Of a DNA stretch of 32,000 nt, positions 6,438 to 31,224 are shown in pieces. The translations under genes and the position numbers were made by a program. The stretch comes from Candidatus Saccharimonadota bacterium. GTDB lineage: Bacteria; Pseudomonadota; Alphaproteobacteria; CAJXXZ01; 1604HC. The notes under the pieces are model-generated. The model was not told where the DNA came from. It worked only from the letters and a program-made list of their open reading frames with translations, and did no database searches. Within the stretch, counting starts at the first letter, position 1. Each line of letters opens with the position of its first letter. Location of the stretch: the NCBI RefSeq assembly GCF_008189405.1, contig NZ_CP043316.1, forward strand, positions 30,001 through 62,000. Direction: 5' to 3'.

Positions 6438-8570
6438 GTGCAAAAAATATTTTTATTGTTTATCACGTCATGCATGTTTGCTATGCCTACATTTGATTCT
6501 TTACAAGCTCATGATGAAAAAGTGGAGAATGCGGCCGCTAATAGTGATAGTGTTGCCAATGACAGCGTTGTAGATGAGCAGCAGCATAGGAATAGTATGG
6601 CAGACAATAGCGATACAGATTCATTATATAGCAATACAGATACATTTTCAGAGACAGATTCTTCTGCATATACATCATCTGAATCACAGCATCTTATTTT
6701 AAAATACAGTTTGCATAATAAGATCACACCAAATGCAGCAAAGCGATTTGGAAGACTAATTAATAGAGAAGGTGAAAATAGAGAAGAAATTGATGAGGAC
6801 CGTTTTGCAGAAATAGTATATATATTGCAAGATATAGAATGTGCACAAAGAAATAATATTGTTAGAAGTGCGCAATATGATTTTGATCAATTTATCAATT
6901 TGAAAAAACATTTACTTGAATTGCATAACCAATTGTACGTTTTGCAAGATTCAGAGTGGAATGATAGGAATCAGAATCATGGTGACAGTATGCTATCTAG
7001 CGATGAGCTGGCAAACCGTATGAATTTAATTCATGAGGAGAAGCTTGAATCAGATCGATTAGCAATTGCTTATCAAGAATCAAAGTTATATTGCAAAATT
7101 GAAACAGGCAGAAAAATTGAAATGTTTGGTGGTTTGGTATATAAATATGGGCTATATGATGATCCATCGATTGGTAGCAATGAATTAATTGATGGATATT
7201 TTGATTTATATGAAAATGCAAATAGAGGATTTGTTTGTAATGATCAAGTAATGGCGTGGGAGCAATTGGTTGATAGAATGAATAAAGCCTACCAGCTTCA
7301 ATATCAAATAGTGACAAATAAGCTGATTCAACAATTAATGGCTAAAGATGCACAAAAGCAGGTAATAATTGAATCCCAAGCAAAGCAAATTGAAACACAA
7401 TCAATAGATATACAAGGTTTGGAAATCAAATTACAAGAGCAAAGAAGTGAATCTCAAATGCAAATCAAAATGTTAAAAACAAAGAACACTAAACAAGAAG
7501 AAGATATTAAAGAGCAGCAAAAGCATATAGATGAAATACAGCCAAAAATGTGGGGTAATTTATATACAGACACTTCCTTAGGATTGAGATTGTTAGTAAG
7601 CGATGGAGAAAATTTGCCTATTGAGTTCACACAAAAATTTAGTATGTCGAGTAAAGCATCAATATGTTCTTCATTCTTTCTTGGAACAAGTAGTGAAAAA
7701 GATGAAAATACTAAATTACTATGCATTACAACTAGTATCCCTGCTGCTATAAATACATTTGTATATAAAGGTTATATAGATATTTATGGTGGTTTGACCA
7801 TTGAAAGCTATATGGGGGCAGATCCTGAATTAGCAGAAACAAATTATATAGAAGATATATTTCATGCAAAGCAAAGATTAGAGTTAGAGAGAAGAATTGA
7901 AGAATTAGAAGATACTACTGAAGAAATAAGATTGAAAAAACAGTATTTAAAAAATATTGAAGAGTGTAAATTAAAAACTATAAAAATCAATGCATCTATT
8001 AAAGAAAGTAAAATGGAGAAAGAGGTTCTAGATAGATTTAAAATTGCTATTGAAATGGTTGAATTGTCTGAGCAATGTATTGATCTGCCTATTAATAGTA
8101 TATATCATGGGATGAATGGTCAGAATGATTTTCAATCTTTTATGCGATTGTATAATGAATACAAGGCGTTTTTGAATAGTACATGTGGAATGAGCATGCA
8201 TGGTAGAGTTATGGCTAGAGCTGTGCCTAAAAGCAGCATAACAAAAGAACTCTATAATGAATATTGCAGGAAAAATAAAATAGATGGATTTGTTGATTTG
8301 TTTAATAAAGAATTTGAGAGTTTCGAAAAATCATATCAAGTCACAAGAAATAATAATTATAAAGCATTGTATGAAACATTAAATCAATTAAGGCAACAAA
8401 AAAGCATGATTGACGCAAAGCGTAGATATGGGAAGTTAGAGCAAGAAAACACATTAAGGTTTGAAAATTATGAGAAGCAATTATCTGAAGCAAAGGAAAA
8501 AGAAGCTGAATATAAGAAATTGCTAAGTAGTATGACTGGTAAATTTGGTTCAATCTACAATTGTCGATGA
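6438..8570 (+). CDS. Secreted coiled-coil protein, paralog A (unknown family)
   Basis: GTG start with a GAGGA Shine-Dalgarno 8 nt upstream. N-terminal Sec-type signal peptide (MQKIFLLFITSCMFAMPTFDSLQA|HD), then an acidic Ser/Asp/Thr-rich tract, then long Glu/Lys/Gln-rich heptad-like regions. Shares conserved blocks with the ORF at 10226-12451. No recognisable catalytic motif. Confidence 0.75.
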   Translation: MQKIFLLFITSCMFAMPTFDSLQAHDEKVENAAANSDSVANDSVVDEQQHRNSMADNSDTDSLYSNTDTFSETDSSAYTSSESQHLILKYSLHNKITPNAAKRFGRLINREGENREEIDEDRFAEIVYILQDIECAQRNNIVRSAQYDFDQFINLKKHLLELHNQLYVLQDSEWNDRNQNHGDSMLSSDELANRMNLIHEEKLESDRLAIAYQESKLYCKIETGRKIEMFGGLVYKYGLYDDPSIGSNELIDGYFDLYENANRGFVCNDQVMAWEQLVDRMNKAYQLQYQIVTNKLIQQLMAKDAQKQVIIESQAKQIETQSIDIQGLEIKLQEQRSESQMQIKMLKTKNTKQEEDIKEQQKHIDEIQPKMWGNLYTDTSLGLRLLVSDGENLPIEFTQKFSMSSKASICSSFFLGTSSEKDENTKLLCITTSIPAAINTFVYKGYIDIYGGLTIESYMGADPELAETNYIEDIFHAKQRLELERRIEELEDTTEEIRLKKQYLKNIEECKLKTIKINASIKESKMEKEVLDRFKIAIEMVELSEQCIDLPINSIYHGMNGQNDFQSFMRLYNEYKAFLNSTCGMSMHGRVMARAVPKSSITKELYNEYCRKNKIDGFVDLFNKEFESFEKSYQVTRNNNYKALYETLNQLRQQKSMIDAKRRYGKLEQENTLRFENYEKQLSEAKEKEAEYKKLLSSMTGKFGSIYNCR

Positions 8571-10225: not shown

Positions 10226-12451
10226 ATGAAAAATATATTTTTATTGTATTTGGTTTTTGCACAAGTGTATGCTGGCTCAGTAGGAGATCTGGATGAAATG
10301 TCTGCGGGGGTGTGTTCTTCAATTAATAGAGAAATGTTAAGCCATGATGAGTCAAGTAATGCTAGTAGGGGTTATTTTGCAGTACATAGTGTTTCTACGA
10401 CGCCTGGCTTTTCTCCGATGTCTAGCTTTTGTTCGACGCCTAGGTCATCTTGTACACAATTTTATCCATTTAGCGATTTATCATTAGACCATTTAAGTGA
10501 TGTTGATGACACATTTGATTCTGCTATACATTATTTTATTGAATATACGAAGCATATGATTGGAAGTATTGTTAAAGCTGAATCTCGTGAATTGATAAAA
10601 ATATTAACACTGAAAAGTTATGAAGAGTCAGATAAGATAATGCAAAAGATAAGGAATAAGGAGAATTATTGCTTTGAGGGATTTGTAAGTATTAAAGAAT
10701 CGTTATTAGCGAAACATTATAAATTACATCGTATGCAATCTGCTGAATCTATGGTTCGTAATAAATATGGTGATATTGAAGGTTTGGCGCGCACAGAATT
10801 AGTAGATCGTATTGCAATAATGAATGAAATGAATCAATATATGGACCGTATTTCATTGCAGCATGATTTATTGCAGGGGTATTCTGAAATTGATTATGAA
10901 AGAAAGATGGATATCATTGGCGGGGCGATATATTCTGAGTATGGTAGCTGTAGGCTTAGTAGTACATCTTCTAATGCAGGCGAAAACGGCATTAGTGATG
11001 AGAATGATAGTCTTAGCTGTGATGATTCTAATCCATTGTCATTGAACTATGTATTGCATGAAGATGAAGTTAGAAGATTTATTTATAAAGATCAAGGTGA
11101 AGCATGGAATAGTTTAGTAATGAATATGGATAATAGTTATAGGATAAAGTATGAAAGTATTACTAATAAGCTGATCATGCAATTGGTGAAGGAAACTCAG
11201 GCAAGTAGGGATATAATCAAGGCACAGCAAGCTATTATTGATATGCAGCAAGGTAAGATCGAAGAAATTACACCAAGAATGCAAGGGAATTTATATAAAG
11301 GCATGCGCGATGAGCTGATCCTACTAGTTAGAGATGGGGATCCTTTGCCTATTAAGTTGACACATATGGGCAAAACTTATGATGGGCCTGAGATAGAAGA
11401 ATCAGTATTTTATATTGAAACAAGTGGAAAGGCACATGAGAGAGTTGAGCTATGTAAATCTAGTGTAAATATTTCTGATGATTATGTTAGATATGATATA
11501 GCAATTGATATTTATGGTAATCTGACAGTTAAAGCTCATACTGTGTCAATTCCTAATGTAGCTGAATGTGGCTCTAATAGTATATTTAATGCGCAGAGCA
11601 TTATGGATATTAGGGAAATTTCACAAAAGAAATTACAAAGTAAAAAAGTTGAAATGATTGATCAAGAGATAAATGAGATTCAAAATAGTATTAAGTTTAA
11701 TGAGAGTGAAGTGCAAAAGTATAATCAGCGCTCTATAGAAGGAGCAAAGGAAATTGAAGAAATAAAAACACAAATAGAGAAAAACAATGCAGAGATAGCA
11801 GAAATTCAAGAAAATATTAAAGAACTCCAAGATGATATTAATGAAAAGAATAAACAGGCCAAGGAGATGATAGATAAGAATAGAGATTCAGATGTAGAGA
11901 TAAAGAAGATAACAAATCAGATTGAGAGATGTAAGAAAAGTATTAGTAGATTTGATACAGAAATCAAAGAACATAATGCAAAAATTCAAGAAAATAAAAA
12001 ATCAGCTAAGGAAGATGAAAAGAAAGCGAAGATTTATGAGGAAACAGCTAAGTATCATGAATCATTGATTAAAGAATGTAAAGAAAAATCTGAGAAATGC
12101 AGTGCAGAAATCAAAGAATTCGAAATTAATATTAAAGATGCAGTAAGTGCTAATAAAGAAAGGGGAGAAAAGATTGATGAATTAAAGGAAGAAGTGCAAG
12201 AAGTACAAGAGAGTATTAATGAAGAAAATGAATCAGTAGAGAAAAAAGAATCAAAGATTAGAGAATTAAATAAAAGAATAGAATCTAAATTAAATCTTGA
12301 TTTGTGGAAAAAGAATGAATCTGAATATGTAGCTAAGGTTAAACAAGGAAATGAAAAACTTGCGGAACTTGAGAGCAAGAAAGAAGAAGAAGTGAGGAAA
12401 CTTCAAGAGATTAACAGTCAGTTCAATGATTTTTTTTTACAGGAGCAATAG
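10226..12451 (+). CDS. Secreted coiled-coil protein, paralog B (unknown family)
   Basis: Signal peptide MKNIFLLYLVFAQVYA|GS, a Ser-rich N-terminal tract, and a roughly 260-aa Lys/Glu-rich C-terminal coiled coil. Conserved blocks shared with paralog A (A first, B second): KIEMFGGLVYKYG / KMDIIGGAIYSEYG; AWEQLVDRMNKAYQLQYQIVTNKLIQQLM / AWNSLVMNMDNSYRIKYESITNKLIMQLV; QPKMWGNLY...LRLLVSDGENLPIEFT / TPRMQGNLY...LILLVRDGDPLPIKLT; IDIYGGLTIE / IDIYGNLTVK. Confidence 0.75.
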   Translation: MKNIFLLYLVFAQVYAGSVGDLDEMSAGVCSSINREMLSHDESSNASRGYFAVHSVSTTPGFSPMSSFCSTPRSSCTQFYPFSDLSLDHLSDVDDTFDSAIHYFIEYTKHMIGSIVKAESRELIKILTLKSYEESDKIMQKIRNKENYCFEGFVSIKESLLAKHYKLHRMQSAESMVRNKYGDIEGLARTELVDRIAIMNEMNQYMDRISLQHDLLQGYSEIDYERKMDIIGGAIYSEYGSCRLSSTSSNAGENGISDENDSLSCDDSNPLSLNYVLHEDEVRRFIYKDQGEAWNSLVMNMDNSYRIKYESITNKLIMQLVKETQASRDIIKAQQAIIDMQQGKIEEITPRMQGNLYKGMRDELILLVRDGDPLPIKLTHMGKTYDGPEIEESVFYIETSGKAHERVELCKSSVNISDDYVRYDIAIDIYGNLTVKAHTVSIPNVAECGSNSIFNAQSIMDIREISQKKLQSKKVEMIDQEINEIQNSIKFNESEVQKYNQRSIEGAKEIEEIKTQIEKNNAEIAEIQENIKELQDDINEKNKQAKEMIDKNRDSDVEIKKITNQIERCKKSISRFDTEIKEHNAKIQENKKSAKEDEKKAKIYEETAKYHESLIKECKEKSEKCSAEIKEFEINIKDAVSANKERGEKIDELKEEVQEVQESINEENESVEKKESKIRELNKRIESKLNLDLWKKNESEYVAKVKQGNEKLAELESKKEEEVRKLQEINSQFNDFFLQEQ

Positions 12452-15026: not shown

Positions 15027-15136
15027 AATAAGTATAATTTAACCCGTATTGGAGTAAATTTCAATGATTGAATTAATAATTATAAAATTTATATATGGAT
15101 TTAAATAAATTCACATATATATTTAAATGAATTGAA

Positions 15137-15211
15137 GGCGAATAACCGGTCTCGAACCGGCGACCTCTAAAGCCACAATCTAGCGCTCTAACCAACTGAG
15201 CTATATCCGCC
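15137..15211 (-). tRNA. tRNA-His (anticodon GUG) with encoded G-1 and C73; no encoded CCA
   Basis: The reverse complement folds as a cloverleaf: G-1, acceptor GCGGATA/TATTCGC, D arm GCTC-AGTTGGTTA-GAGC, anticodon arm CTAGA-TTGTGGC-TTTAG (GTG), T arm GCCGG-TTCGAGA-CCGGT, discriminator C pairing with G-1. Confidence 0.9.
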
Positions 15212-20742: not shown

Positions 20743-22023
20743 CTAGGCCTTATATTGTTCTTCTAGGTATTTTACAACTAATTTGATATCAGTTGAATTG
20801 CTCCCTTTTAGAAGAATTATATCATCTTTTCTGATGATTTTATCTAGATAGTCACAAATTTGCTTATAATTTTGCAATATTATACCTGTTTTTGATGTCC
20901 ATTTTTCTCCTAATAGAATTAGTATATCTACACCAAAATCTACATTATGGTACTGTGCAGTATATTCGCCTAATTCTCCCATTTCTCCTAATACAGCTAT
21001 CTTTCTATTTGGGTATGATTGCAATTGAGCTATTGATGCGTTTAATGAAGTTGGATTTGAGTTAAAGCTTCCATCTATAATTGTGAAAACATCATTGTTT
21101 TCTAATGTACGCTTACTGTTTTTTGATAGTTTTAATATGTTATTTCTACCTTTAGATGGTTTGTAATTTGAAATATTATTATGTGCATTTTGAATATTTT
21201 CCTGTTCTGCGATTAATAAAATAGGAACTGCATTTTGCTTGTGTATATCATGATTTATGCTGAATATTTTACTATTCTGTACTTGTGAATCTGAATTGAG
21301 TGATGAGTTTGAATCTGTGATTGTGAATTGCAGATTTCTAGGGCAATACTTCTCACATATTAAAGGGAAAAAAGCATGTCTTTGGGTGTATTTTAGTAAG
21401 TAAGATTTCTCTTGAGCTATATGATCTATATTTTCAAAATTACCAATATGTCCAGGTCCGATTGTAGTGATAATAGAATAGTGTGGTGAGGCGATTGATG
21501 ATAGTATATCCATTTCATGTGGATTATTTATTCCTAACTCTAGAATTAAATATTCTGGGTCTGATGTCAGATTACATATAGTAAGTGCAAGGCCATATAT
21601 TGTATTATAGCTTGCTGGAGTAGCAATTATATTTTGATCAGAAAAGGCTGATATCATTTGTTCTTTAGTTGATGTTTTGCCTGCTGTGCCTGTAATAGCA
21701 ATTACAGTTGCTTTTAAATTATTACGAATGTTTTGCGTAAGCTGAATGAGGGCATTTTGGACATTTTCTACTTTAATGAGTTTGTCTTGTGGAATATCCA
21801 AATTCTTTTCAGATACAATATATTCTGCTCCTTTACCCAAGGCATCTTGTGCAAATTCGTGACCATCATTTACTGCCCCTTTTATACAGAAGAAAATTTC
21901 TCCACTTTGCACAATTCTACTATCAATGGATATCCCAGATATGGTATTTGATACATTATGATTTATTTGAAATGTTTTCTTCATTATATTTGGAGTAATT
22001 AACTTCTTGGTGGTTAATATCAT
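20743..22023 (-). CDS. murF: UDP-N-acetylmuramoyl-tripeptide--D-alanyl-D-alanine ligase
   Basis: ISIDSRIVQSGEIFFCIKGAVNDGHEFAQDALGKGA (MurF N-terminal pattern), Mur ligase P-loop ITGTAGKTSTKE, and the C-terminal IIDGSFNSNPTS (D.YNANP.S). Lies upstream of mraY. Confidence 0.9.
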   Translation of the reverse strand: MILTTKKLITPNIMKKTFQINHNVSNTISGISIDSRIVQSGEIFFCIKGAVNDGHEFAQDALGKGAEYIVSEKNLDIPQDKLIKVENVQNALIQLTQNIRNNLKATVIAITGTAGKTSTKEQMISAFSDQNIIATPASYNTIYGLALTICNLTSDPEYLILELGINNPHEMDILSSIASPHYSIITTIGPGHIGNFENIDHIAQEKSYLLKYTQRHAFFPLICEKYCPRNLQFTITDSNSSLNSDSQVQNSKIFSINHDIHKQNAVPILLIAEQENIQNAHNNISNYKPSKGRNNILKLSKNSKRTLENNDVFTIIDGSFNSNPTSLNASIAQLQSYPNRKIAVLGEMGELGEYTAQYHNVDFGVDILILLGEKWTSKTGIILQNYKQICDYLDKIIRKDDIILLKGSNSTDIKLVVKYLEEQYKA

Positions 22024-22233
22024 TACTTTAATAATGGATTAATGAAATAGAAAATGATAGATATGCGATGAATATATGGCAGGGAATGTTAGATTTAGAA
22101 ATCTGTTTTGATAATACACATACTTTGTAACTAGTAATGATTTTACAAAATTAGTGAGCAATTAATTTGAACTAAAAAGGCTGAATATTAATGTAATAAA
22201 TACTATTCATTACATTATGAAATTCTAGATTAA

Positions 22234-22478
22234 TGTAGGCTTGGCAGGAACCACGAAGTGCACTGTGCCAACCGAAATGAAATGTAGGCTTGGCAGGAAC
22301 CACGAAGTGCACTGTGCCAACCGAAATGAAATGTAGGCTTGGCAGGAACCACGAAGTGCACTGTGCCAACCGAAATGAAATGTAGGCTTGGCAGGAACCA
22401 CGAAGTGCACTGTGCCAACCGAAATGAAATGTAGGCTTGGCAGGAACCACGAAGTGCACTGTGCCAACCGAAATGAAA
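22234..22478. repeat. Perfect tandem repeat, 5 x 49 bp, abutting the tRNA 3' end
   Basis: The unit tgtaggcttggcaggaaccacgaagtgcactgtgccaaccgaaatgaaa starts at 22234, 22283, 22332, 22381 and 22430. All copies are identical on direct reading. A sixth partial copy (22479-22495) is the 3' end of the adjacent tRNA itself. Confidence 0.97.
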
Positions 22479-22480
22479 TG

Positions 22481-22553
22481 TAGGCTTGGCAGGAATCGAA
22501 CCTGCGACAACACCGTTATAAGCGATGTGTTCTAACCGCTGAACTACAAGCCC
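22481..22553 (-). tRNA. tRNA-Ile (anticodon UAU, reads AUA); no encoded CCA
   Basis: Reverse complement: GGGCTTG TA GTTC-AGCGGTTA-GAAC A CATCG-CTTATAA-CGGTG TTGTC GCAGG-TTCGATT-CCTGC CAAGCCT A. This is a regular 73-nt cloverleaf with anticodon loop C-U-UAU-A-A and discriminator A. Confidence 0.85.
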
Positions 22554-22595
22554 TCTCACAGATTCTAAGGTATAAATCAAATCGTATCAAGTAAT

Positions 22596-23267
22596 ATGCG
22601 ATTGATTGTTGATGCACATATGTATTATCCTAATATGATGGCTTGGAGTTGTGGTAGAAGTAGGAAGTTGAAAAGTAATATTGAGCAAGACTATGCTAAG
22701 TATCTTTACTCAACTAATAAGATAAATGAAATTATAAATATGCATAAGGAAAATAGAAGAATATGTTTGGATATTGGGTTTGGTGCAGGGGATAGTATTA
22801 TACAAACGTTAATGAATGGCAAATCAATTGTGATTGGGTGTGAAATATTTAAGCCTGCAATTTTCCATACATTAACTAGGGTAGAAGATAAAGATAGAGT
22901 ATTTTTATGTATGGCTTTTATTAATGATTTGATCCAATCTTTACCATTGAACTCTTTTGATGAAATTAAGATGCTATGTCCAGATCCATGGCCAAAATAT
23001 AAACATCGCATGAGACGCTGTTACAACATTAGAAAATTTGATTTAGAAATAGTTAAAATTTTGAAAAAAGAAGGCATATTTACTCTAGCATCAGATATTA
23101 AATCAATCACTCAAAATATGGTGAATTTATTTAATAGTCCGTATTTCGATATAGCTCAGAATGAATATACAACATATGATGAATGCCCACATAAAACAGA
23201 ATACTGTAAGAAAGGGTTCAATGCTGGCAGGCATGTTTATGAAATGATTGCGCGAAAAAGTATATGA
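22596..23267 (+). CDS. trmB: tRNA (guanine46-N7)-methyltransferase
   Basis: SAM-binding LDIGFGAGDS and the TrmB hallmark CPDPWPKYKHRMRR (FPDPW.K.RH.KRR). Confidence 0.85.
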   Translation: MRLIVDAHMYYPNMMAWSCGRSRKLKSNIEQDYAKYLYSTNKINEIINMHKENRRICLDIGFGAGDSIIQTLMNGKSIVIGCEIFKPAIFHTLTRVEDKDRVFLCMAFINDLIQSLPLNSFDEIKMLCPDPWPKYKHRMRRCYNIRKFDLEIVKILKKEGIFTLASDIKSITQNMVNLFNSPYFDIAQNEYTTYDECPHKTEYCKKGFNAGRHVYEMIARKSI

Positions 23268-23400
23268 ACAGCAATGCTAAACAAATAAATATATTAAATA
23301 TGATGATTTGCTGTTATAGATACTATTCTACTGCTAGGTGGATTTATGATTATAAAAGCAAAACCTATCAGGGTAAATTTATAATTGTGAGAGTAAATTG

Positions 23401-24222
23401 ATGAGTTTCGGGAAGTGTTTTATTATTGGAGGATCAACAGCAAGTGGGAAATCTTCATATGCTATGGATTTATCTACGAAAATAAATGGATCAATTATTA
23501 ATGGTGATAGTAAGCAAGTATATAATATATTGCCAACGTTAACTGCGCAGCCGGAAAATTTACACAATCACTATTTGTATAATTATTTCCCATGCCACAA
23601 TAGGATTGATATGATGGTTTGGTTAGTTGATTGCATTGAAGCGATCAAAAAAACTATTAGTAATGGGAAAGTGCCAATTGTTGTTGGTGGTACGGGTTTC
23701 TACCTCAATGCATTAAAAGAAGGATTTATAGAAATTCCTGATGTTGAACATGATAATCAACTGGATTTGATGAGTTCAGAAGAATTATTTCAAAAAGCTT
23801 ATGCCTTTGATCCTGATTTGCAAATAAAATTAAATGACCGATATAGGTTGATTAGGGCTTTAAATGTGATGAATGGAACTGGAAAGCCACATTCATGGTG
23901 GTTAAAACAAAAAAAGAAAAAATTAATTGATATTGAATTTCATTCTATTTATATAGATAAAATGAAGGATGAAGTACGAGAATCTGCTGATAGGAGATTA
24001 GATATAATGCTCCCAAAATCAATTGAAGAAGTGAAAAAATTAGATGTGAATATTGGATCTCATATTAAGTCTATAATTGGGGTGAAAGAAATACAAATGT
24101 TTTTATATGATGAAATATCATTTGATAAAATGAAAGAATTAATATTGATCAGGACTATGCAATACGCTAAACAGCAAAGAACATGGTTCAAAAATCAAAT
24201 GTCATTTGATGAGATAGTATAA
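23401..24222 (+). CDS. miaA: tRNA dimethylallyltransferase
   Basis: IIGGSTASGKSSYAMDL...IINGDSKQVYNILPTLTAQP and VVGGTGFYLNAL are conserved MiaA motifs. The ATG at 23401 is preferred over the TTG at 23398. Confidence 0.9.
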   Translation: MSFGKCFIIGGSTASGKSSYAMDLSTKINGSIINGDSKQVYNILPTLTAQPENLHNHYLYNYFPCHNRIDMMVWLVDCIEAIKKTISNGKVPIVVGGTGFYLNALKEGFIEIPDVEHDNQLDLMSSEELFQKAYAFDPDLQIKLNDRYRLIRALNVMNGTGKPHSWWLKQKKKKLIDIEFHSIYIDKMKDEVRESADRRLDIMLPKSIEEVKKLDVNIGSHIKSIIGVKEIQMFLYDEISFDKMKELILIRTMQYAKQQRTWFKNQMSFDEIV

Positions 24223-24321
24223 TTTTCATAAGCACCTTAATTATAATGATAATTATTAGAAGTAAATTTGAGTACTGAAATAAATTTTATGAAATTAACA
24301 AAGTAAACTGTTTGTACAAAA

Positions 24322-24394
24322 CACTCCCTAGGGGAATTGAACCCCTGTTTCCGCCATGAGAGGGCGATGTCCTAGTCCACTAGACGAAGGGAGC
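24322..24394 (-). tRNA. tRNA-Glu (anticodon CUC); no encoded CCA
   Basis: Reverse complement: GCTCCCT TC GTCT-AGTGGACTA-GGAC A TCGCC-CTCTCAT-GGCGG AAAC AGGGG-TTCAATT-CCCCT AGGGAGT G. The backbone closely resembles E. coli tRNA-Glu, but the anticodon reads CTC rather than TTC. Confidence 0.85.
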
Positions 24395-24488
24395 ATGGAC
24401 TAATTCTATTATTAAATTACAAAACATTCAATCCAGTAATTTGGTGAGACATTTGAAGTTCATTGAAAATGCATTAAGATTGTAATTA

Positions 24489-28976: not shown

Positions 28977-30269
28977 TTACTCATTAATAAATTCAATTAA
29001 TGAGATTGAGATTGGAGAGTGTGATAATGAAGGGTTATAAATGCATAGTTTTTCTGCAGCTTTGAAAAATCTATCTGAAGATTCTATCTTAATTATGATT
29101 TGCTTGTCTGACTTGCTATGCATATCAATGGTTTCTCTTTGAACTCCAAGTACTCGCGTTTCTATAGCAGTGTTTAGCATGGATTCACTAGCAATAATAC
29201 AATCTCTATTCCATTTATTCATCTCAGATGTTTCAACATTATTGTCATAGCTAATTAATAGGAATATCTCATCGCTTGTTAATTTCTCATCTACATTCAT
29301 AAAATAAACAGATTCTTTTTGTTCGAAATCATGTAGTAAATATGGCTCTTTTATTTCATCTAATATGTTTTGTATAAATGTAAAAATAGGCTGGAAGCTT
29401 TTGAATAGGTTTGCATGATGATATATAGGAATGTCTTGAAATATTGATTCTAAGTTAAACACTGAGATATGCGCAATTAAATTTACTAGAGCAGAGAATA
29501 GTGATTGAGGATGGCTATTGCGAGAATGTATAATATGTTCAACAGGTAAAATTCCTTGCATGAAAATAGAATTAATTGTGGCTGGATTATATTTGTTATT
29601 ATTAATATTAATTTGATTTTTAATATGTATTGTTTTGTCTTTTAATAATTTGATTAGTCTCTTTGTTTCTTTTATAATGTTTTTTGCAAGATTTACATCA
29701 ATGCAAGGAGCGTCATATGTTCCAATTTGGAATCCAGCATTAGTGTCAACTATAGTACATAGTTGTATTCCTGTATAATTTAATGGCACTTCATCAAATG
29801 CTATTTTGTATATTGGTTTTAATTTGAATACACAAGTAGAATTTTCTCCATTATTATAATCTTCTGTAGAATCAATCTGAATTGATTGATAGCTTTGATC
29901 ATGTGATTCAGATTCATATGTATGATATGAATTTGGTTTGACTAGAAATATTTTTAATGGTTTGTTTTTTTGTATATTTTCCTTGAATTTAATTGACATA
30001 GGCTCATCTTTTTGTAGAGGGAATATAATTATACTTTTATCTTCCAAGATCGCTTCAATGCTATTTAAGTGAATTATACCTTCCTTTAAATTTATAGTGT
30101 CTAGATCAATATCAATTATACCCCAATGATGTGGCATTGTTTTTGATAAAATATACGATACAAGCTTTTCATTTGTTATATCAGATTGTTGGAAATGATG
30201 CGGAGATAAAGGCATTCCCTCATACCAATGAATCTTATAAGGGCAAAAATTTAATTTTTTAGCGTTCAT
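28977..30269 (-). CDS. tssK: Type VI secretion baseplate protein TssK (ImpJ/VasE family)
   Basis: The N-terminus KIHWYEGMPLSPHHFQQSD...HHWGIIDIDLDTINLKEGIIHLNSIEAILEDKSIIIFP parallels the conserved TssK start (e.g. VVWSEGMFLRPQHFQQHDRY...GWGF..L.LD...L..G.L.....G.LPDGT.F.IP). The 430-aa length is typical. There is a 4-bp overlap with the upstream lipoprotein gene, in tssJ-tssK order. Confidence 0.8.
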   Translation of the reverse strand: MNAKKLNFCPYKIHWYEGMPLSPHHFQQSDITNEKLVSYILSKTMPHHWGIIDIDLDTINLKEGIIHLNSIEAILEDKSIIIFPLQKDEPMSIKFKENIQKNKPLKIFLVKPNSYHTYESESHDQSYQSIQIDSTEDYNNGENSTCVFKLKPIYKIAFDEVPLNYTGIQLCTIVDTNAGFQIGTYDAPCIDVNLAKNIIKETKRLIKLLKDKTIHIKNQININNNKYNPATINSIFMQGILPVEHIIHSRNSHPQSLFSALVNLIAHISVFNLESIFQDIPIYHHANLFKSFQPIFTFIQNILDEIKEPYLLHDFEQKESVYFMNVDEKLTSDEIFLLISYDNNVETSEMNKWNRDCIIASESMLNTAIETRVLGVQRETIDMHSKSDKQIIIKIESSDRFFKAAEKLCIYNPSLSHSPISISLIEFINE

Positions 30270-30766
30270 TTGTCAGCTCCTATTGAGTATATATTCCTAT
30301 GTATTAGTTTTGTATTATTCTTCTTTGTAGGTGAAATTTTCTTTAGTGCATTTAAGCCTAATTCAATATTTAAATGCTTTGTTTTAGGTGTTAATGTAAA
30401 ACTATTCTTTTTGTCTGTATTATAAGACATAAAAACTATAGATCCATAACACATTGGTGTCCAATTCCCTATGCAGAAAGATGATAGCTCAGTGCGAGGG
30501 AGAGGTTCAAATGACCATACTTTCATGTGTTGTGAATTATGAGAAAGTAGTGATTTTCTATTCTCAAAATACTGTTTGCTTTTCATTTTAGAAACTATAT
30601 TCCATAAAATTTGATTGAAAATTTGTACTAACTCAACTCTGACAACTGAGTTATTATTCATATTTTGTGTAGATAATATACTGAATGTTTGTAGTGAATA
30701 GTTTTTCTTTTTATCTTGCTCACACCCAATCAAAAAAATTGCAACAAGGCATGCTAAAAATTTCAT
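30266..30766 (-). CDS. Lipoprotein, probable TssJ-like T6SS outer-membrane lipoprotein
   Basis: Lipobox signal peptide MKFLACLVAIFLIGC. At 166 aa the size matches TssJ. There is weak TssJ-like patterning (SVVRVELVQIF..., YGSIVFMSYNTD resembling the V.AAYRD block). Position immediately upstream of tssK supports the call. Confidence 0.5.
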   Translation of the reverse strand: MKFLACLVAIFLIGCEQDKKKNYSLQTFSILSTQNMNNNSVVRVELVQIFNQILWNIVSKMKSKQYFENRKSLLSHNSQHMKVWSFEPLPRTELSSFCIGNWTPMCYGSIVFMSYNTDKKNSFTLTPKTKHLNIELGLNALKKISPTKKNNTKLIHRNIYSIGADK

Positions 30767-31224
30767 TTATCTGCTCTTTTCATTAATGTTGTAATAATTT
30801 TATATTCTGATTTGATTGTCTCTGATATTGCTAATGCATCTTTCAAAGTGAGTTTATCTTTTAATTTCACAGTATATCCATTTGGAGTTTTGGTGATTAC
30901 AGCATTTAATTCATTGATTTTATCTGTAAAATCAGTAGCATCAATTTTATCATGAAAAGAACCTAGGCTGATTTCATAGTCTTTGGGGGAAGTTGTTGTT
31001 TTCTTTTCCTGTTTAATGCTTATGATATTATTTTTCTGCTTCTGATCCAAATATGATTTGAATAAAAAACCAGAAGCAAATGATAATCCCGAAAAAATAA
31101 ATGTTGTTATTACAAAAAATAGCGTAAATCCTATCCTTATTCCTTGAGCAGGACTAGTTTGTAGTTTTTTTCCTAAGCTATTTCTTAAAATTTGATTTTG
31201 CATTATTCTCATTACTTTCAACAT
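30763..31224 (-). CDS. Bitopic membrane protein with C-terminal SPOR-like domain
   Basis: One transmembrane helix (GIRIGFTLFFVITTFIFSGLSFASGFLF), then a Lys/Thr-rich linker. The ~70-aa C-terminus (YEISLGSFHDKIDATDFTDKINELNAVITKTPNGYTVKLKDKLTLKDALAISETIKSEY) has the beta-alpha-beta-beta-alpha-beta pattern of SPOR peptidoglycan-binding domains. First gene of the operon, with a 4-bp overlap with the next gene. Confidence 0.45.
   Translation of the reverse strand: MLKVMRIMQNQILRNSLGKKLQTSPAQGIRIGFTLFFVITTFIFSGLSFASGFLFKSYLDQKQKNNIISIKQEKKTTTSPKDYEISLGSFHDKIDATDFTDKINELNAVITKTPNGYTVKLKDKLTLKDALAISETIKSEYKIITTLMKRADK

What the first reader, a model, noticed from the sequence alone, without database searches (positions are those of the whole stretch)
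22234..22553. Five perfect 49-bp tandem repeats fused to a tRNA 3' end, each re-copying the tRNA acceptor/T-arm end
Directly downstream of tRNA-Ile, in the tRNA sense, lie five head-to-tail copies of a 49-bp unit. I see no mismatch between copies. In the tRNA sense each unit ends in TTCCTGCCAAGCCTACA, a 17-nt exact copy of the tRNA T-stem 3' half, acceptor 3' strand, discriminator and 2 trailer nt. Allowing a 5-nt gap, the match extends to GGTTC of the T arm. I count 25 G/C in 49 positions, which contrasts strongly with the AT-rich surroundings. The unit contains an inverted repeat (GGTTGGCA ... TGCCAAGCC, one bulge), so each copy could form an acceptor-stem-like hairpin ending in a free ACA. 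The array lies on the same strand between the tRNA and the murF-mraY-murD-thyX gene string. It would therefore be transcribed as tRNA trailer and/or dcw leader. Three explanations are possible: an amplified remnant of an attL/attR site from a tRNA-targeting integrative element; a slippage-expanded minisatellite; or a functional array of tRNA-end mimics, such as RNase or CCA-adding-enzyme substrates, a decoy, or a terminator/processing array. Perfect identity in a genome that appears to be under strong AT mutational pressure argues for very recent expansion or active homogenisation.
Basis: partly seen in the sequence, partly recalled or inferred. Interest (0 to 1): 0.7.

Follow-up and report, generated by a model that had tools for sequence, protein, structure and literature searches.

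The report
Minisatellite grown from a tRNA end
Downstream of the tRNA-Ile gene of a tiny protist endosymbiont, a 49-bp piece that re-copies the last 15 bases of the tRNA has been amplified five times; related species carry different arrays at the same kind of site, so it is most likely a fast-evolving junk-DNA repeat, not a new RNA device.

Summary
Window 22232-22495 holds 5.4 perfect copies of a 49-bp unit, in register with the 3' end of tRNA-Ile(UAU) (22481-22553, minus strand). Each unit repeats tRNA positions 59-73 plus 4 trailer bases.

The window comes from Candidatus Cytomitobacter primus, a 622-kb Holosporales endosymbiont of Diplonema japonicum, assembled from PacBio HiFi reads.

New here: two related Cytomitobacter genomes have analogous arrays with unrelated units.
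- One has an 80-bp x1.9 array at tRNA-Ile.
- The other has an 89-bp x5.6 array at tRNA-Glu. At its tRNA-Ile it has a decayed copy of the tRNA end followed by a 36-bp x8.4 array.
- Five other relatives have none at tRNA-Ile; the four in which tRNA-Glu was also sampled have none there.

All three tRNA-anchored arrays share one architecture: tRNA(..R)-H-[T-R-H]n, with R starting in the T arm.

The evidence does not support a tRNA-end mimic:
- The unit hairpin is no more stable than shuffled sequence.
- No Rfam family matches the units.
- No terminator was found, and nothing is conserved between species except the tRNA-derived piece.
- No integrase was found in the sampled DNA.

Best reading: a partial duplication of the tRNA end, expanded and homogenised by slippage or unequal exchange at a recurrently unstable site. 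An att-site remnant as the seed remains a live rival. Interest is moderate to low.

The parts
22481..22553 (-). tRNA-Ile, anticodon UAU. The gene is intact. Its last 15 nt (positions 59-73) form the first copy of the repeated block.
   Evidence: ARAGORN. Rfam tRNA model 68 bits, E 2.7e-14, full length. Cloverleaf fold -24.8 kcal/mol, z -2.2.
22232..22495 (-). The 49-bp tandem array: 264 bp, 5.39 copies, 100% identical. It consists of six 19-nt R blocks alternating with five 30-nt spacers.
   Evidence: TRF; self-match run at shift 49; exact pattern counts.
22477..22495 (-). R0: TTCCTGCCAAGCCTACATT. This is the tRNA's own T-loop end, T-stem 3' strand, acceptor 3' strand and discriminator, plus 4 trailer nt.
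   Evidence: Sequence.
22232..22250 (-). R5: the last copy of the 19-nt block. It is followed by AATCTAG... The block's CATT and that first A spell CATTA, the trailer found directly after tRNA-Ile in C. indipagum, which has no array.
   Evidence: C. indipagum...GCCTACATTAGTAAATATTATG, the murF start.
22251..22280 (-). Spacer T (TCATTTCGGTTGGCACAGTGCACTTCGTGG), copy 5. The other copies are at 22300-22329, 22349-22378, 22398-22427 and 22447-22476. It is GC-rich and contains GGTTGGCA, which can pair with TGCCAAGCC of either neighbouring R block.
   Evidence: No significant similarity to the tRNA interior. No match in viral contigs or phage records.
22562..22590 (-). Promoter-like site (TTGATA-17-TAGAAT, 10 of 12) just upstream of the tRNA. 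It is the candidate start of a transcript that would run through the array.
   Evidence: This is a consensus match only; the number of sites in the region is not above the shuffled expectation.
22024..22231 (-). AT-rich spacer (23.5% GC) between the array and the murF start. No intrinsic terminator was detected anywhere between the tRNA and murF.
20743..22023 (-). murF, the first gene of the murF-mraY-murD-thyX string downstream of the array on the same strand.
   Evidence: Pfam Mur_ligase domains; named UDP-N-acetylmuramoyl-tripeptide--D-alanyl-D-alanine ligase of Ca. Cytomitobacter primus.
22596..23267 (+). trmB-like tRNA methyltransferase gene, divergent from the tRNA. It served as the anchor for fetching the orthologous loci.
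   Evidence: PF02390; homologues.

Best explanation
The array is a non-coding minisatellite derived from a partial duplication of the tRNA-Ile gene end.

Step 1 (inferred). A short tandem duplication had its left edge in the T arm of the tRNA gene and its right edge a few bases into the 3' flank. It left the gene intact and placed a second copy of the tRNA's last 15 nt plus trailer downstream. The result was R-T-R.

Step 2 (inferred from the structure). The two direct repeats served as the substrate for replication slippage or RecA-mediated unequal sister exchange. This expanded the module to (R-T)x5-R. The inverted repeat inside the unit (TGCCAAGCC / GGTTGGCA) can form hairpins that favour slippage.

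Step 3 (inferred). Continued exchange homogenises the units. Because the tRNA's own R block is the first member of the array and is under selection, all R copies stay identical to the tRNA while the rest of the unit drifts freely.

The array is probably transcribed as tRNA trailer and murF leader and then discarded. It has no dedicated function.

The 3' flank of tRNA genes in Cytomitobacter is a recurrent site of such events and of rearrangement. Arrays are born, turn over and decay independently in each species.
For: Shown:
- The structure is exactly (19-nt R + 30-nt T)x5 + R. It starts at tRNA position 59 and is 100% identical between copies.
- The last R is followed by the trailer seen in the array-free sister species C. 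indipagum, where tRNA-Ile lies 13 nt from the murF start.
- A related Cytomitobacter genome (locus L002) has an 80-bp x1.9 array (97%) at tRNA-Ile. Its R block carries that species' own tRNA variant, CCAGGCC.
- A third genome (loci L003/L008) has an 89-bp x5.6 array (99%) at tRNA-Glu, re-copying 21 of 22 nt of that tRNA's end.
- At tRNA-Ile the same genome has a decayed R copy (p = 0.03) followed by a perfect 36-bp x8.4 array that lacks R.
- The units are unrelated between species.
- In L002 and in the tRNA-Glu array, the sequence after the last R repeats the head of the unit (47 and 32 nt). A tandem duplication of native flank gives this pattern; an insertion does not.
- Five other relatives lack arrays at tRNA-Ile.
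- Of the strong non-coding tandem arrays in about 138 kb sampled, 4 of 6 lie within 40 nt of a tRNA 3' end. Excluding the index case this gives P about 6e-4 to 3e-3.
- The gene downstream of tRNA-Ile differs among the array-bearing species: murF, uppS and rpmB. These sites are therefore also synteny breakpoints.
- The 49-bp period is not a multiple of 3, and the ORFs across the array match no family.
- RecA/RecFOR and MutSL are present in these genomes (bioRxiv 10.1101/719211).
- The assembly is from HiFi reads (PMC13598402).
Against: - In C. primus the 30-nt spacer T is neither recognisably native flank nor recognisably tRNA interior (p = 0.25-0.37). A simple tandem duplication therefore does not fully account for this particular unit.
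- The spacer's GC-richness in a 30% GC genome is unexplained.
- The left edge falls in the T arm in all three arrays (positions 59, 59 and about 53). This could point to a site-specific process instead of random breakpoints.
- Copy-number variation between strains, the hallmark of an active minisatellite, could not be tested.
- Only about 41 kb of the 622-kb genome was examined for other copies of the unit.
Confidence: 0.6

Rival explanations
1. Amplified att-site remnant. A tyrosine-integrase element once integrated at the T-loop sublocation of tRNA-Ile, and in another species at tRNA-Glu. This created attL/attR direct repeats of the tRNA end. The element then decayed to a few tens of bases, and the R-X-R remnant was expanded by slippage.
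For: - The copied block starts in the T loop or T stem and ends just past the tRNA 3' end, in two different tRNAs. This matches the T-loop attB sublocation described for tRNA-targeting integrases (bioRxiv 10.1101/2020.11.02.365908; PMC1762012).
- In C. primus the 30-nt spacer looks like an insert bounded by a 19-nt direct repeat, with the native flank following only the last copy.
- In L003/L008, a lineage-specific insertion of about 3 kb carrying an ankyrin-repeat gene sits next to the tRNA-Glu array.
- These sites are also synteny breakpoints.
Against: - No integrase lies in the 32-kb window, in 9.4 kb beyond it, or in any related locus.
- These genomes are reported to have very few mobile elements.
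- For tRNA-Ile the identity covers only 2 of the 7 T-loop bases that would form the crossover segment.
- No distal copy of R lies beyond the ankyrin gene.
- In L002 and in the tRNA-Glu array, the sequence after the last R equals the head of the unit. This fits a tandem duplication, not an insertion.
- The spacer has no match in viral contigs or phage records.
Confidence: 0.22
2. Functional RNA array. Each unit folds into an acceptor/T-arm-like minihelix that acts in the tRNA-murF transcript as a processing signal, a decoy or an insulator. Candidate partners are RNase P, RNase Z or the CCA-adding enzyme.
For: - The unit can form an 8-bp helix with one bulge. Its 5' strand, GGTTG|GCA, resembles tRNA positions 2-7 fused to 49-51 (sequence).
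- The L002 unit folds as GGCUUG-AUU-GCAG(8-nt loop)CUGC-CAGGCC, which looks like a minihelix.
- No terminator separates the tRNA from murF, so the array is probably transcribed.
- The R copies are perfectly conserved while the remainder of the unit differs between species.
Against: - The fold energies are not better than shuffled sequence (z = -0.2 to -1.5).
- The whole tRNA-plus-array transcript has z = -0.6 and prefers a different, inter-unit pairing.
- Rfam finds only the true tRNA at E up to 1, with no match on the units.
- Similarity of the spacer to the tRNA 5' strands is not significant (p = 0.05-0.36).
- The tRNA-Glu unit has no acceptor-like pairing, and the 36-bp array in L008 lacks R altogether.
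- Five relatives, including the sister species with tRNA-Ile 13 nt from murF, have no array.
Confidence: 0.08
3. Assembly artefact. The true genome holds one copy or a different number of copies.
For: Perfect identity between copies is also what a collapsed or over-expanded repeat would look like. The second public C. primus assembly could not be retrieved for comparison.
Against: - The assembly was built from PacBio HiFi reads, with 102-fold coverage reported for the host sequencing run. Such reads span a 264-bp array many times over.
- Independent long-contig assemblies of two other species show analogous arrays at tRNA ends.
Confidence: 0.03

Closest known systems
[quoted passage not shown] 1995) and tRNA-pseudogene repeats in mitochondrial duplication-random-loss regions
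   Same: A repeat unit that contains part of the adjacent tRNA gene. The functional gene is kept at the edge of the array. Copy number and unit vary between close relatives. Slipped-strand mispairing is the invoked mechanism.
   Different: This case is in a bacterial endosymbiont chromosome. Only the last 15 nt of the tRNA are recognisably copied. It recurs at two different tRNAs in three species. Copy-number polymorphism within a species was not shown.
attL/attR direct repeats left by integrases that target the T-loop sublocation of tRNA genes
   Same: A direct repeat of the tRNA segment from the T loop to just beyond the 3' end. The tRNA gene is regenerated intact.
   Different: There is no integrase and no cargo between the repeats. 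There are five perfect head-to-tail copies instead of two repeats bounding an island. For tRNA-Ile the identity does not cover the whole T loop.
Actively expanding and contracting intergenic tandem repeats of reduced intracellular Alphaproteobacteria (Ehrlichia ruminantium)
   Same: High-identity tandem repeats confined to non-coding DNA of a small, AT-rich intracellular alphaproteobacterial genome, with turnover between relatives.
   Different: The Ehrlichia repeats are not reported there as anchored in tRNA ends. Here four of the six strong non-coding arrays sampled sit at tRNA 3' ends.
tRNA-like processing elements (plant mitochondrial t-elements, acceptor/T-arm minihelices as RNase P/Z substrates). 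This comparison rests on my own knowledge and was not checked in the literature here.
   Same: A hairpin with a 3' strand identical to the tRNA acceptor and T-stem strand, followed by a free single-stranded tail, inside a transcript that also carries an mRNA.
   Different: No T-loop consensus, no covariance-model match, no stability above shuffled sequence, and no conservation across species.

Membership tests
Non-coding minisatellite / VNTR | Head-to-tail copies of a 10-100 bp unit with high identity | tested here: met
   Period 49, 5.4 copies, 100% identity.
Non-coding minisatellite / VNTR | Not part of a coding sequence | tested here: met
   49 is not a multiple of 3. The ORFs across the array match no Pfam family. 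No gene is called there in the public record.
Non-coding minisatellite / VNTR | Copy number varies between strains of one species | not testable with these tools
   The second C. primus assembly could not be retrieved, and C. primus is absent from the genome collection. Between species, presence, period and copy number all differ.
Repeat array derived from a partial tRNA gene duplication | The unit contains a copy of part of the adjacent tRNA gene, in register with the gene | tested here: met
   tRNA positions 59-73 plus 4 trailer nt occur in each unit. The same design is found in L002 and at tRNA-Glu in L003.
Repeat array derived from a partial tRNA gene duplication | The remainder of the unit is recognisable as decayed tRNA interior or as native flank | tested here: inconclusive
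   C. primus spacer against the tRNA interior: p = 0.25-0.37. L002: p = 0.1-0.18. tRNA-Glu unit: collinear with tRNA positions 18-48, p = 0.03-0.04. The unit heads equal the native flank in L002 (47 nt) and in the Glu array (32 nt), but for only 4 nt in C. primus.
attL/attR remnant of a tRNA-integrating element | Direct repeat equal to a tRNA 3' segment that starts at the anticodon loop, T loop or 3' end | tested here: met
   R starts at T-loop position 59 (Ile) or at about position 53 (Glu) and runs past the 3' end.
attL/attR remnant of a tRNA-integrating element | Integrase gene and foreign cargo between or beside the repeats | tested here: not met
   Only 30 nt lie between the repeats. No recombinase family was found in the window ORFs or in the called genes of any locus. 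The rest of the genome was not searched.
attL/attR remnant of a tRNA-integrating element | Identity spans the crossover segment (the 7-nt T loop for this sublocation) | tested here: not met
   For tRNA-Ile only TT of TTCGATT is shared. For tRNA-Glu 6 of 7 bases are shared.
tRNA-like structure / tRNA-end mimic RNA | Acceptor/T-arm fold supported by energy or a covariance model | tested here: not met
   z = -0.2 to -1.0. Rfam finds no match on the units at E up to 1. ARAGORN calls only the true tRNA.
tRNA-like structure / tRNA-end mimic RNA | Conserved in orthologous position across relatives | tested here: not met
   Absent at tRNA-Ile in C. indipagum, the Logan species, L009, the MAG CP060235 and Nesciobacter. 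The units are unrelated where arrays are present.
Intrinsic terminator array | GC-rich hairpin followed by a T run | tested here: not met
   0 terminator-like sites in 21900-22750, and none in the related arrays.

The most novel reading that the evidence does not exclude
The tRNA T-arm-to-3'-end block may not be an accidental breakpoint. It could be the specific anchor of an active process in Cytomitobacter that repeatedly builds and maintains arrays at tRNA genes. One possibility is an unrecognised site-specific recombination or template-switching activity that acts on tRNA gene ends. Another is selection for transcribed copies of the tRNA end, for example as trailer modules that are processed or that titrate a tRNA-end-binding enzyme. 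Two observations hint at this: the perfect conservation of R beside free drift of everything else, and the recurrence at two tRNAs in three species.
Probability: 0.12. Interest if true: 0.65.

Novelty: new member of a known kind. Interest (0 to 1): 0.35.

Why it matters
In highly reduced, gene-dense endosymbiont genomes described as stable and nearly free of mobile elements, the 3' flanks of two tRNA genes are local hotspots of repeat birth, turnover and rearrangement. This has three uses.
- It offers a ready VNTR marker for tracking Cytomitobacter populations within and between diplonemid hosts.
- It provides a natural case for studying concerted evolution, in which one array member (the tRNA end) is under selection.
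- It is a caution for annotation: spurious ORFs are called across such arrays, and short-read contigs break there.

It does not, on present evidence, reveal a new RNA or defence system.

Tried and rejected
- Unit elsewhere in public data. A 24-mer of the spacer had 0 hits in the species-representative genome collection. A MurF-based scan of the same collection showed that C. primus is not in it. There were 0 hits in viral contigs and no blastn match of R-T-R-T in phage records.
- Metagenome scan for R..R. The only hit is a 16-bp satellite, GTTCCTGCCAGGCCTA x17, in an ORF-poor contig without a tRNA. I treated it as coincidence.
- By eye, the spacers looked like decayed tRNA interior or like an internally deleted mini-tRNA, and the C. 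primus and L002 spacers looked homologous (GCAsAGTGC). Shuffle tests did not support this beyond marginal levels (p = 0.05-0.6), so I do not rely on it.
- Head-on replication-transcription conflict as the cause. GC skew suggests the array-bearing tRNA is head-on in C. primus but co-directional in L002 and L008, and head-on without an array in C. indipagum. I rejected it as a general explanation. Skew on short loci is imprecise.
- Structured RNA. Folds of the unit and of the whole transcript are not unusual. Only the tRNA-Glu unit has a significant hairpin (z = -3.2), and that hairpin is unrelated to the tRNA.
- Promoter or terminator function. There is no terminator, and promoter-like sites are not above the shuffled expectation.
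- Protein coding. There are no family hits.
- Retrieving the second C. primus assembly to compare copy number failed.

Full report
**What is there.**
- Window 22232-22495 is a 264-bp tandem array with period 49, 5.4 copies, 100% identity and no indels.
- It overlaps the 3' end of tRNA-Ile(UAU), which lies at 22481-22553 on the minus strand (ARAGORN; Rfam 68 bits).
- Read in the tRNA sense, the sequence is tRNA...GGTTCGA|TTCCTGCCAAGCCTA|CATT, followed by TCATTTCGGTTGGCACAGTGCACTTCGTGG, and this module repeats.
- A script shows that the perfect periodicity begins at tRNA position 59. Five full units follow the tRNA. The array is six copies of a 19-nt block R (tRNA positions 59-73 plus the trailer CATT) alternating with five copies of a 30-nt spacer T.
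- After the last R the sequence continues AATCTAG....
Neither occurs elsewhere in the window, and 0 are expected by chance.
- The unit has 25 G/C in 49 positions, against 31% and 23.5% GC in the flanks.

**Where it comes from.**
- The TrmB-like and MurF proteins of the window are identical to those of record OX638200.1 (GCA_951805245.1, 622,378 bp). The source names it Candidatus Cytomitobacter primus.
- This is a Holosporales endosymbiont of the diplonemid Diplonema japonicum. It was assembled from PacBio HiFi reads (PMC13598402).
- HiFi reads span a 264-bp array many times over, so an assembly artefact is unlikely.
- The diplonemid endosymbiont genomes are described as gene-dense, with very few mobile elements, and as retaining RecA/RecFOR and MutSL (bioRxiv 10.1101/719211).

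**Context.**
- The array lies between the tRNA and murF-mraY-murD-thyX, all on the minus strand.
- A promoter-like site lies just upstream of the tRNA. No intrinsic terminator lies between the tRNA and murF.
- In the sister species C. indipagum, tRNA-Ile ends 13 nt before the murF start codon. Co-transcription of the tRNA with murF is therefore probably ancestral, and the array would be part of the trailer/leader. This is inference; no RNA data were available.
- No ORF in the window has an integrase or recombinase domain. The ORFs that run through the array match no family.
- A further 9.4 kb of the same genome holds no tRNA, no strong repeat and no copy of the unit.

**Relatives: the main new result.** I fetched the orthologous loci of the relatives through MurF and TrmB homologues.
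- L002 is a Cytomitobacter species with MurF 59% identical to the window's. Its tRNA-Ile is followed by an 80-bp x1.9 array (97%). Each unit ends in TTCCTGCCAGGCCTA, which is that species' own version of the tRNA end.
- L003/L008 is another species, with MurF 58% identical.
  - Its tRNA-Glu(CUC) is followed by an 89-bp x5.6 array (99%). Each unit ends in GTTaAATTCCCCTAGGGAGTAT, which matches 21 of 22 bases of the tRNA-Glu end.
  - Its tRNA-Ile is followed by 17 nt, then a decayed copy of the tRNA end (GGGATTCTTCCAATCCTA, p = 0.03), then a perfect 36-bp x8.4 array that no longer contains R.
- No array follows tRNA-Ile in C. indipagum, a Logan-assembled relative, L009, the MAG CP060235 or Nesciobacter. 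None follows tRNA-Glu in the four of these where it was sampled (not the Logan relative). None follows tRNA-His or tRNA-Trp in any sampled locus.
- On a MurF tree the three array-bearing species form a clade. A TrmB tree does not confirm the position of C. primus.
- In about 138 kb sampled there are six strong non-coding tandem arrays, and four of them sit within 40 nt of a tRNA 3' end. Leaving out the index case, the probability is about 6e-4 to 3e-3 under uniform placement in non-coding DNA.

**Common anatomy.**
- All three tRNA-anchored arrays have the form tRNA(..R)-H-[T-R-H]n-flank. R starts in the T arm (positions 59, 59 and about 53). H is the stretch of trailer that is also repeated (4, 47 and 32 nt). 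T is a species-specific filler (30, 18 and 40 nt).
- In L002 and in the tRNA-Glu array, the sequence after the last R is the head of the unit. A tandem duplication of tRNA end plus native flank produces exactly this.
- In C. primus only CATT is shared, so T looks more like an insert bounded by a 19-nt direct repeat.
- The fillers are unrelated to each other.
- The fillers are not significantly similar to the tRNA interior. The exception is a marginal, collinear match of the Glu filler to tRNA-Glu positions 18-48 (p = 0.03-0.04).
- The gene downstream of tRNA-Ile is murF in C. primus, uppS in L002 (the block from tRNA-Ile to tRNA-Glu is inverted) and rpmB in L008. In L008 an ankyrin-repeat gene has been inserted beside the tRNA-Glu array. 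These tRNA flanks are therefore also rearrangement breakpoints.

**Is it a structured or functional RNA?**
- The full tRNA-plus-array transcript has z = -0.6. It prefers pairing each R with the GGTTGGC of the next unit.
- Rfam at E up to 1 finds the tRNA and nothing on the units.
- The L002 unit can be drawn as a neat acceptor/T-arm minihelix. Its resemblance to the tRNA 5' strands is only marginal (p about 0.05).
- The Glu unit has a significant hairpin of its own (z = -3.2), but that hairpin is unrelated to the acceptor stem. The 36-bp array has no R at all.
- With no conservation across species, a dedicated tRNA-mimic function is poorly supported.

**Most likely mechanism.**
- A partial duplication of the tRNA end created two direct repeats.
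- Slippage or unequal exchange between them expanded the module and keeps it homogeneous.
- The tRNA's own R is the first member of the array and is under selection. This explains why all R copies match the species' own tRNA exactly while the rest of the unit is free to change.
- When exchange with the tRNA copy stops, R decays. The L008 tRNA-Ile locus appears to show this stage.
- These steps are inferred from the structure and the comparison. None was observed directly.
- An att-type origin of the first duplication stays possible. The T-loop-to-3'-end block is what integrases of the T-loop sublocation duplicate. However, no integrase, cargo or distal repeat was found, and the tRNA-Ile identity covers only 2 of the 7 T-loop bases.
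- A head-on replication-transcription conflict does not fit, because the array-bearing tRNAs differ in orientation relative to GC skew.

**Comparison with known things.**
- The closest precedents are tandem repeats derived from partially duplicated tRNA genes in organelle genomes (Hipkins 1995, cited in PMC3641632; mitochondrial duplication-random-loss regions).
- Another is the actively expanding intergenic repeats of Ehrlichia ruminantium (PMC10710844).
- The array meets the structural definition of a minisatellite and of a partial-tRNA-derived array.
- It fails two defining features of an att remnant (integrase or cargo; identity across the crossover segment).
- It fails the features of a tRNA-like RNA element and of a terminator.

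**Verdict.**
- What remains is a new bacterial example of a known kind of repeat. Its noteworthy feature is recurrence at tRNA ends across three endosymbiont species. Interest is 0.35.
- The untested points are strain-level copy-number variation, a whole-genome survey, the recombinase content of the genomes, and RNA ends.

Noticed in passing
L008 9463-9869 (ERZ25333236 ctg610, minus strand): tRNA-Ile is followed by 17 nt, a decayed copy of its own 3' end (GGGATTCTTCCAATCCTA), and then a perfect 36-bp x8.4 array (TTTCATAATTGCGCAGCAAAAGTTTGCAACGCTTTA) that lacks the tRNA block. A spurious 159-aa gene is called across it.
   Followed up: partly
L003 3774-4323 = L008 13986-14535: An 89-bp x5.6 array (99%) lies in register with the 3' end of tRNA-Glu(CUC). 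Beside it is a 582-aa ankyrin-repeat gene (itself 99-bp x12.7), inserted between tRNA-Glu and miaA. Other genomes have no gene at that position.
   Followed up: partly
L002 3297-6001 compared with window 22024-24488: The block tRNA-Ile - trmB - miaA - tRNA-Glu is inverted in L002 relative to C. primus and C. indipagum. One breakpoint lies at the tRNA-Ile 3' flank, where the 80-bp repeat sits.
   Followed up: partly
window 22481-22553, and the tRNA-Ile genes of L002, L004, L005, L006, L008, L009: The isoleucine tRNA here has a genomically encoded UAU anticodon in every relative examined. This is uncommon in bacteria, which usually decode AUA with a lysidine-modified CAU tRNA. Whether tilS and tRNA-Ile(CAU) are missing from these genomes was not checked.
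   Followed up: no
L013 1722-1994 (JGI metagenome contig Ga0224511_10082454): A 16-bp satellite, GTTCCTGCCAGGCCTA x17, has a unit equal to G plus the 15-nt tRNA-Ile end of L002. The contig is ORF-poor and has no tRNA. This is probably coincidence, but a tRNA-derived satellite cannot be excluded.
   Followed up: partly
window 6438-8570 and 10226-12451 (+): Two large paralogous proteins of 710 and 741 aa (28% identity over about 390 aa, E 5e-33). Neither has a Pfam family above its curated cut-off (one weak sub-threshold AAA_13 hit on the 741-aa protein), and both have long charged C-terminal regions. They are candidate lineage-specific secreted or effector proteins. A weak 18-bp repeat lies at 10392-10443.
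   Followed up: partly
L004 10554-10832 and 2401-2518 (C. indipagum CP043315): Adjacent perfect 7-bp microsatellites, (AGTTAAA)27 and (AAAACTA)13, lie between the convergent genes thyX and an MFS transporter. A 37-bp x3.2 repeat lies between another convergent pair. Strong repeats away from tRNAs therefore sit at 3'-3' gene junctions.
   Followed up: no
window 15085-15133: A weak AT-rich 22-bp x2.2 repeat (81%) begins 3 nt downstream of tRNA-His (15136-15211, minus strand). It contains no copy of the tRNA end.
   Followed up: no
L010/L011 position 1 and L012 position 1 (Logan contigs, SRR12358675/6): Short-read contigs of a fifth Cytomitobacter-like species break inside tRNA-Ile, at ...TAACGGTGTTGTCGC. 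In that species the tRNA is followed by an 85-nt spacer and then murF, without an array.
   Followed up: partly
window 28977-31224 (-): A type VI secretion TssK/VasE-family gene (PF05936) is followed by two small ORFs without family matches, next to tRNA-Trp. The same arrangement occurs in L008.
   Followed up: no
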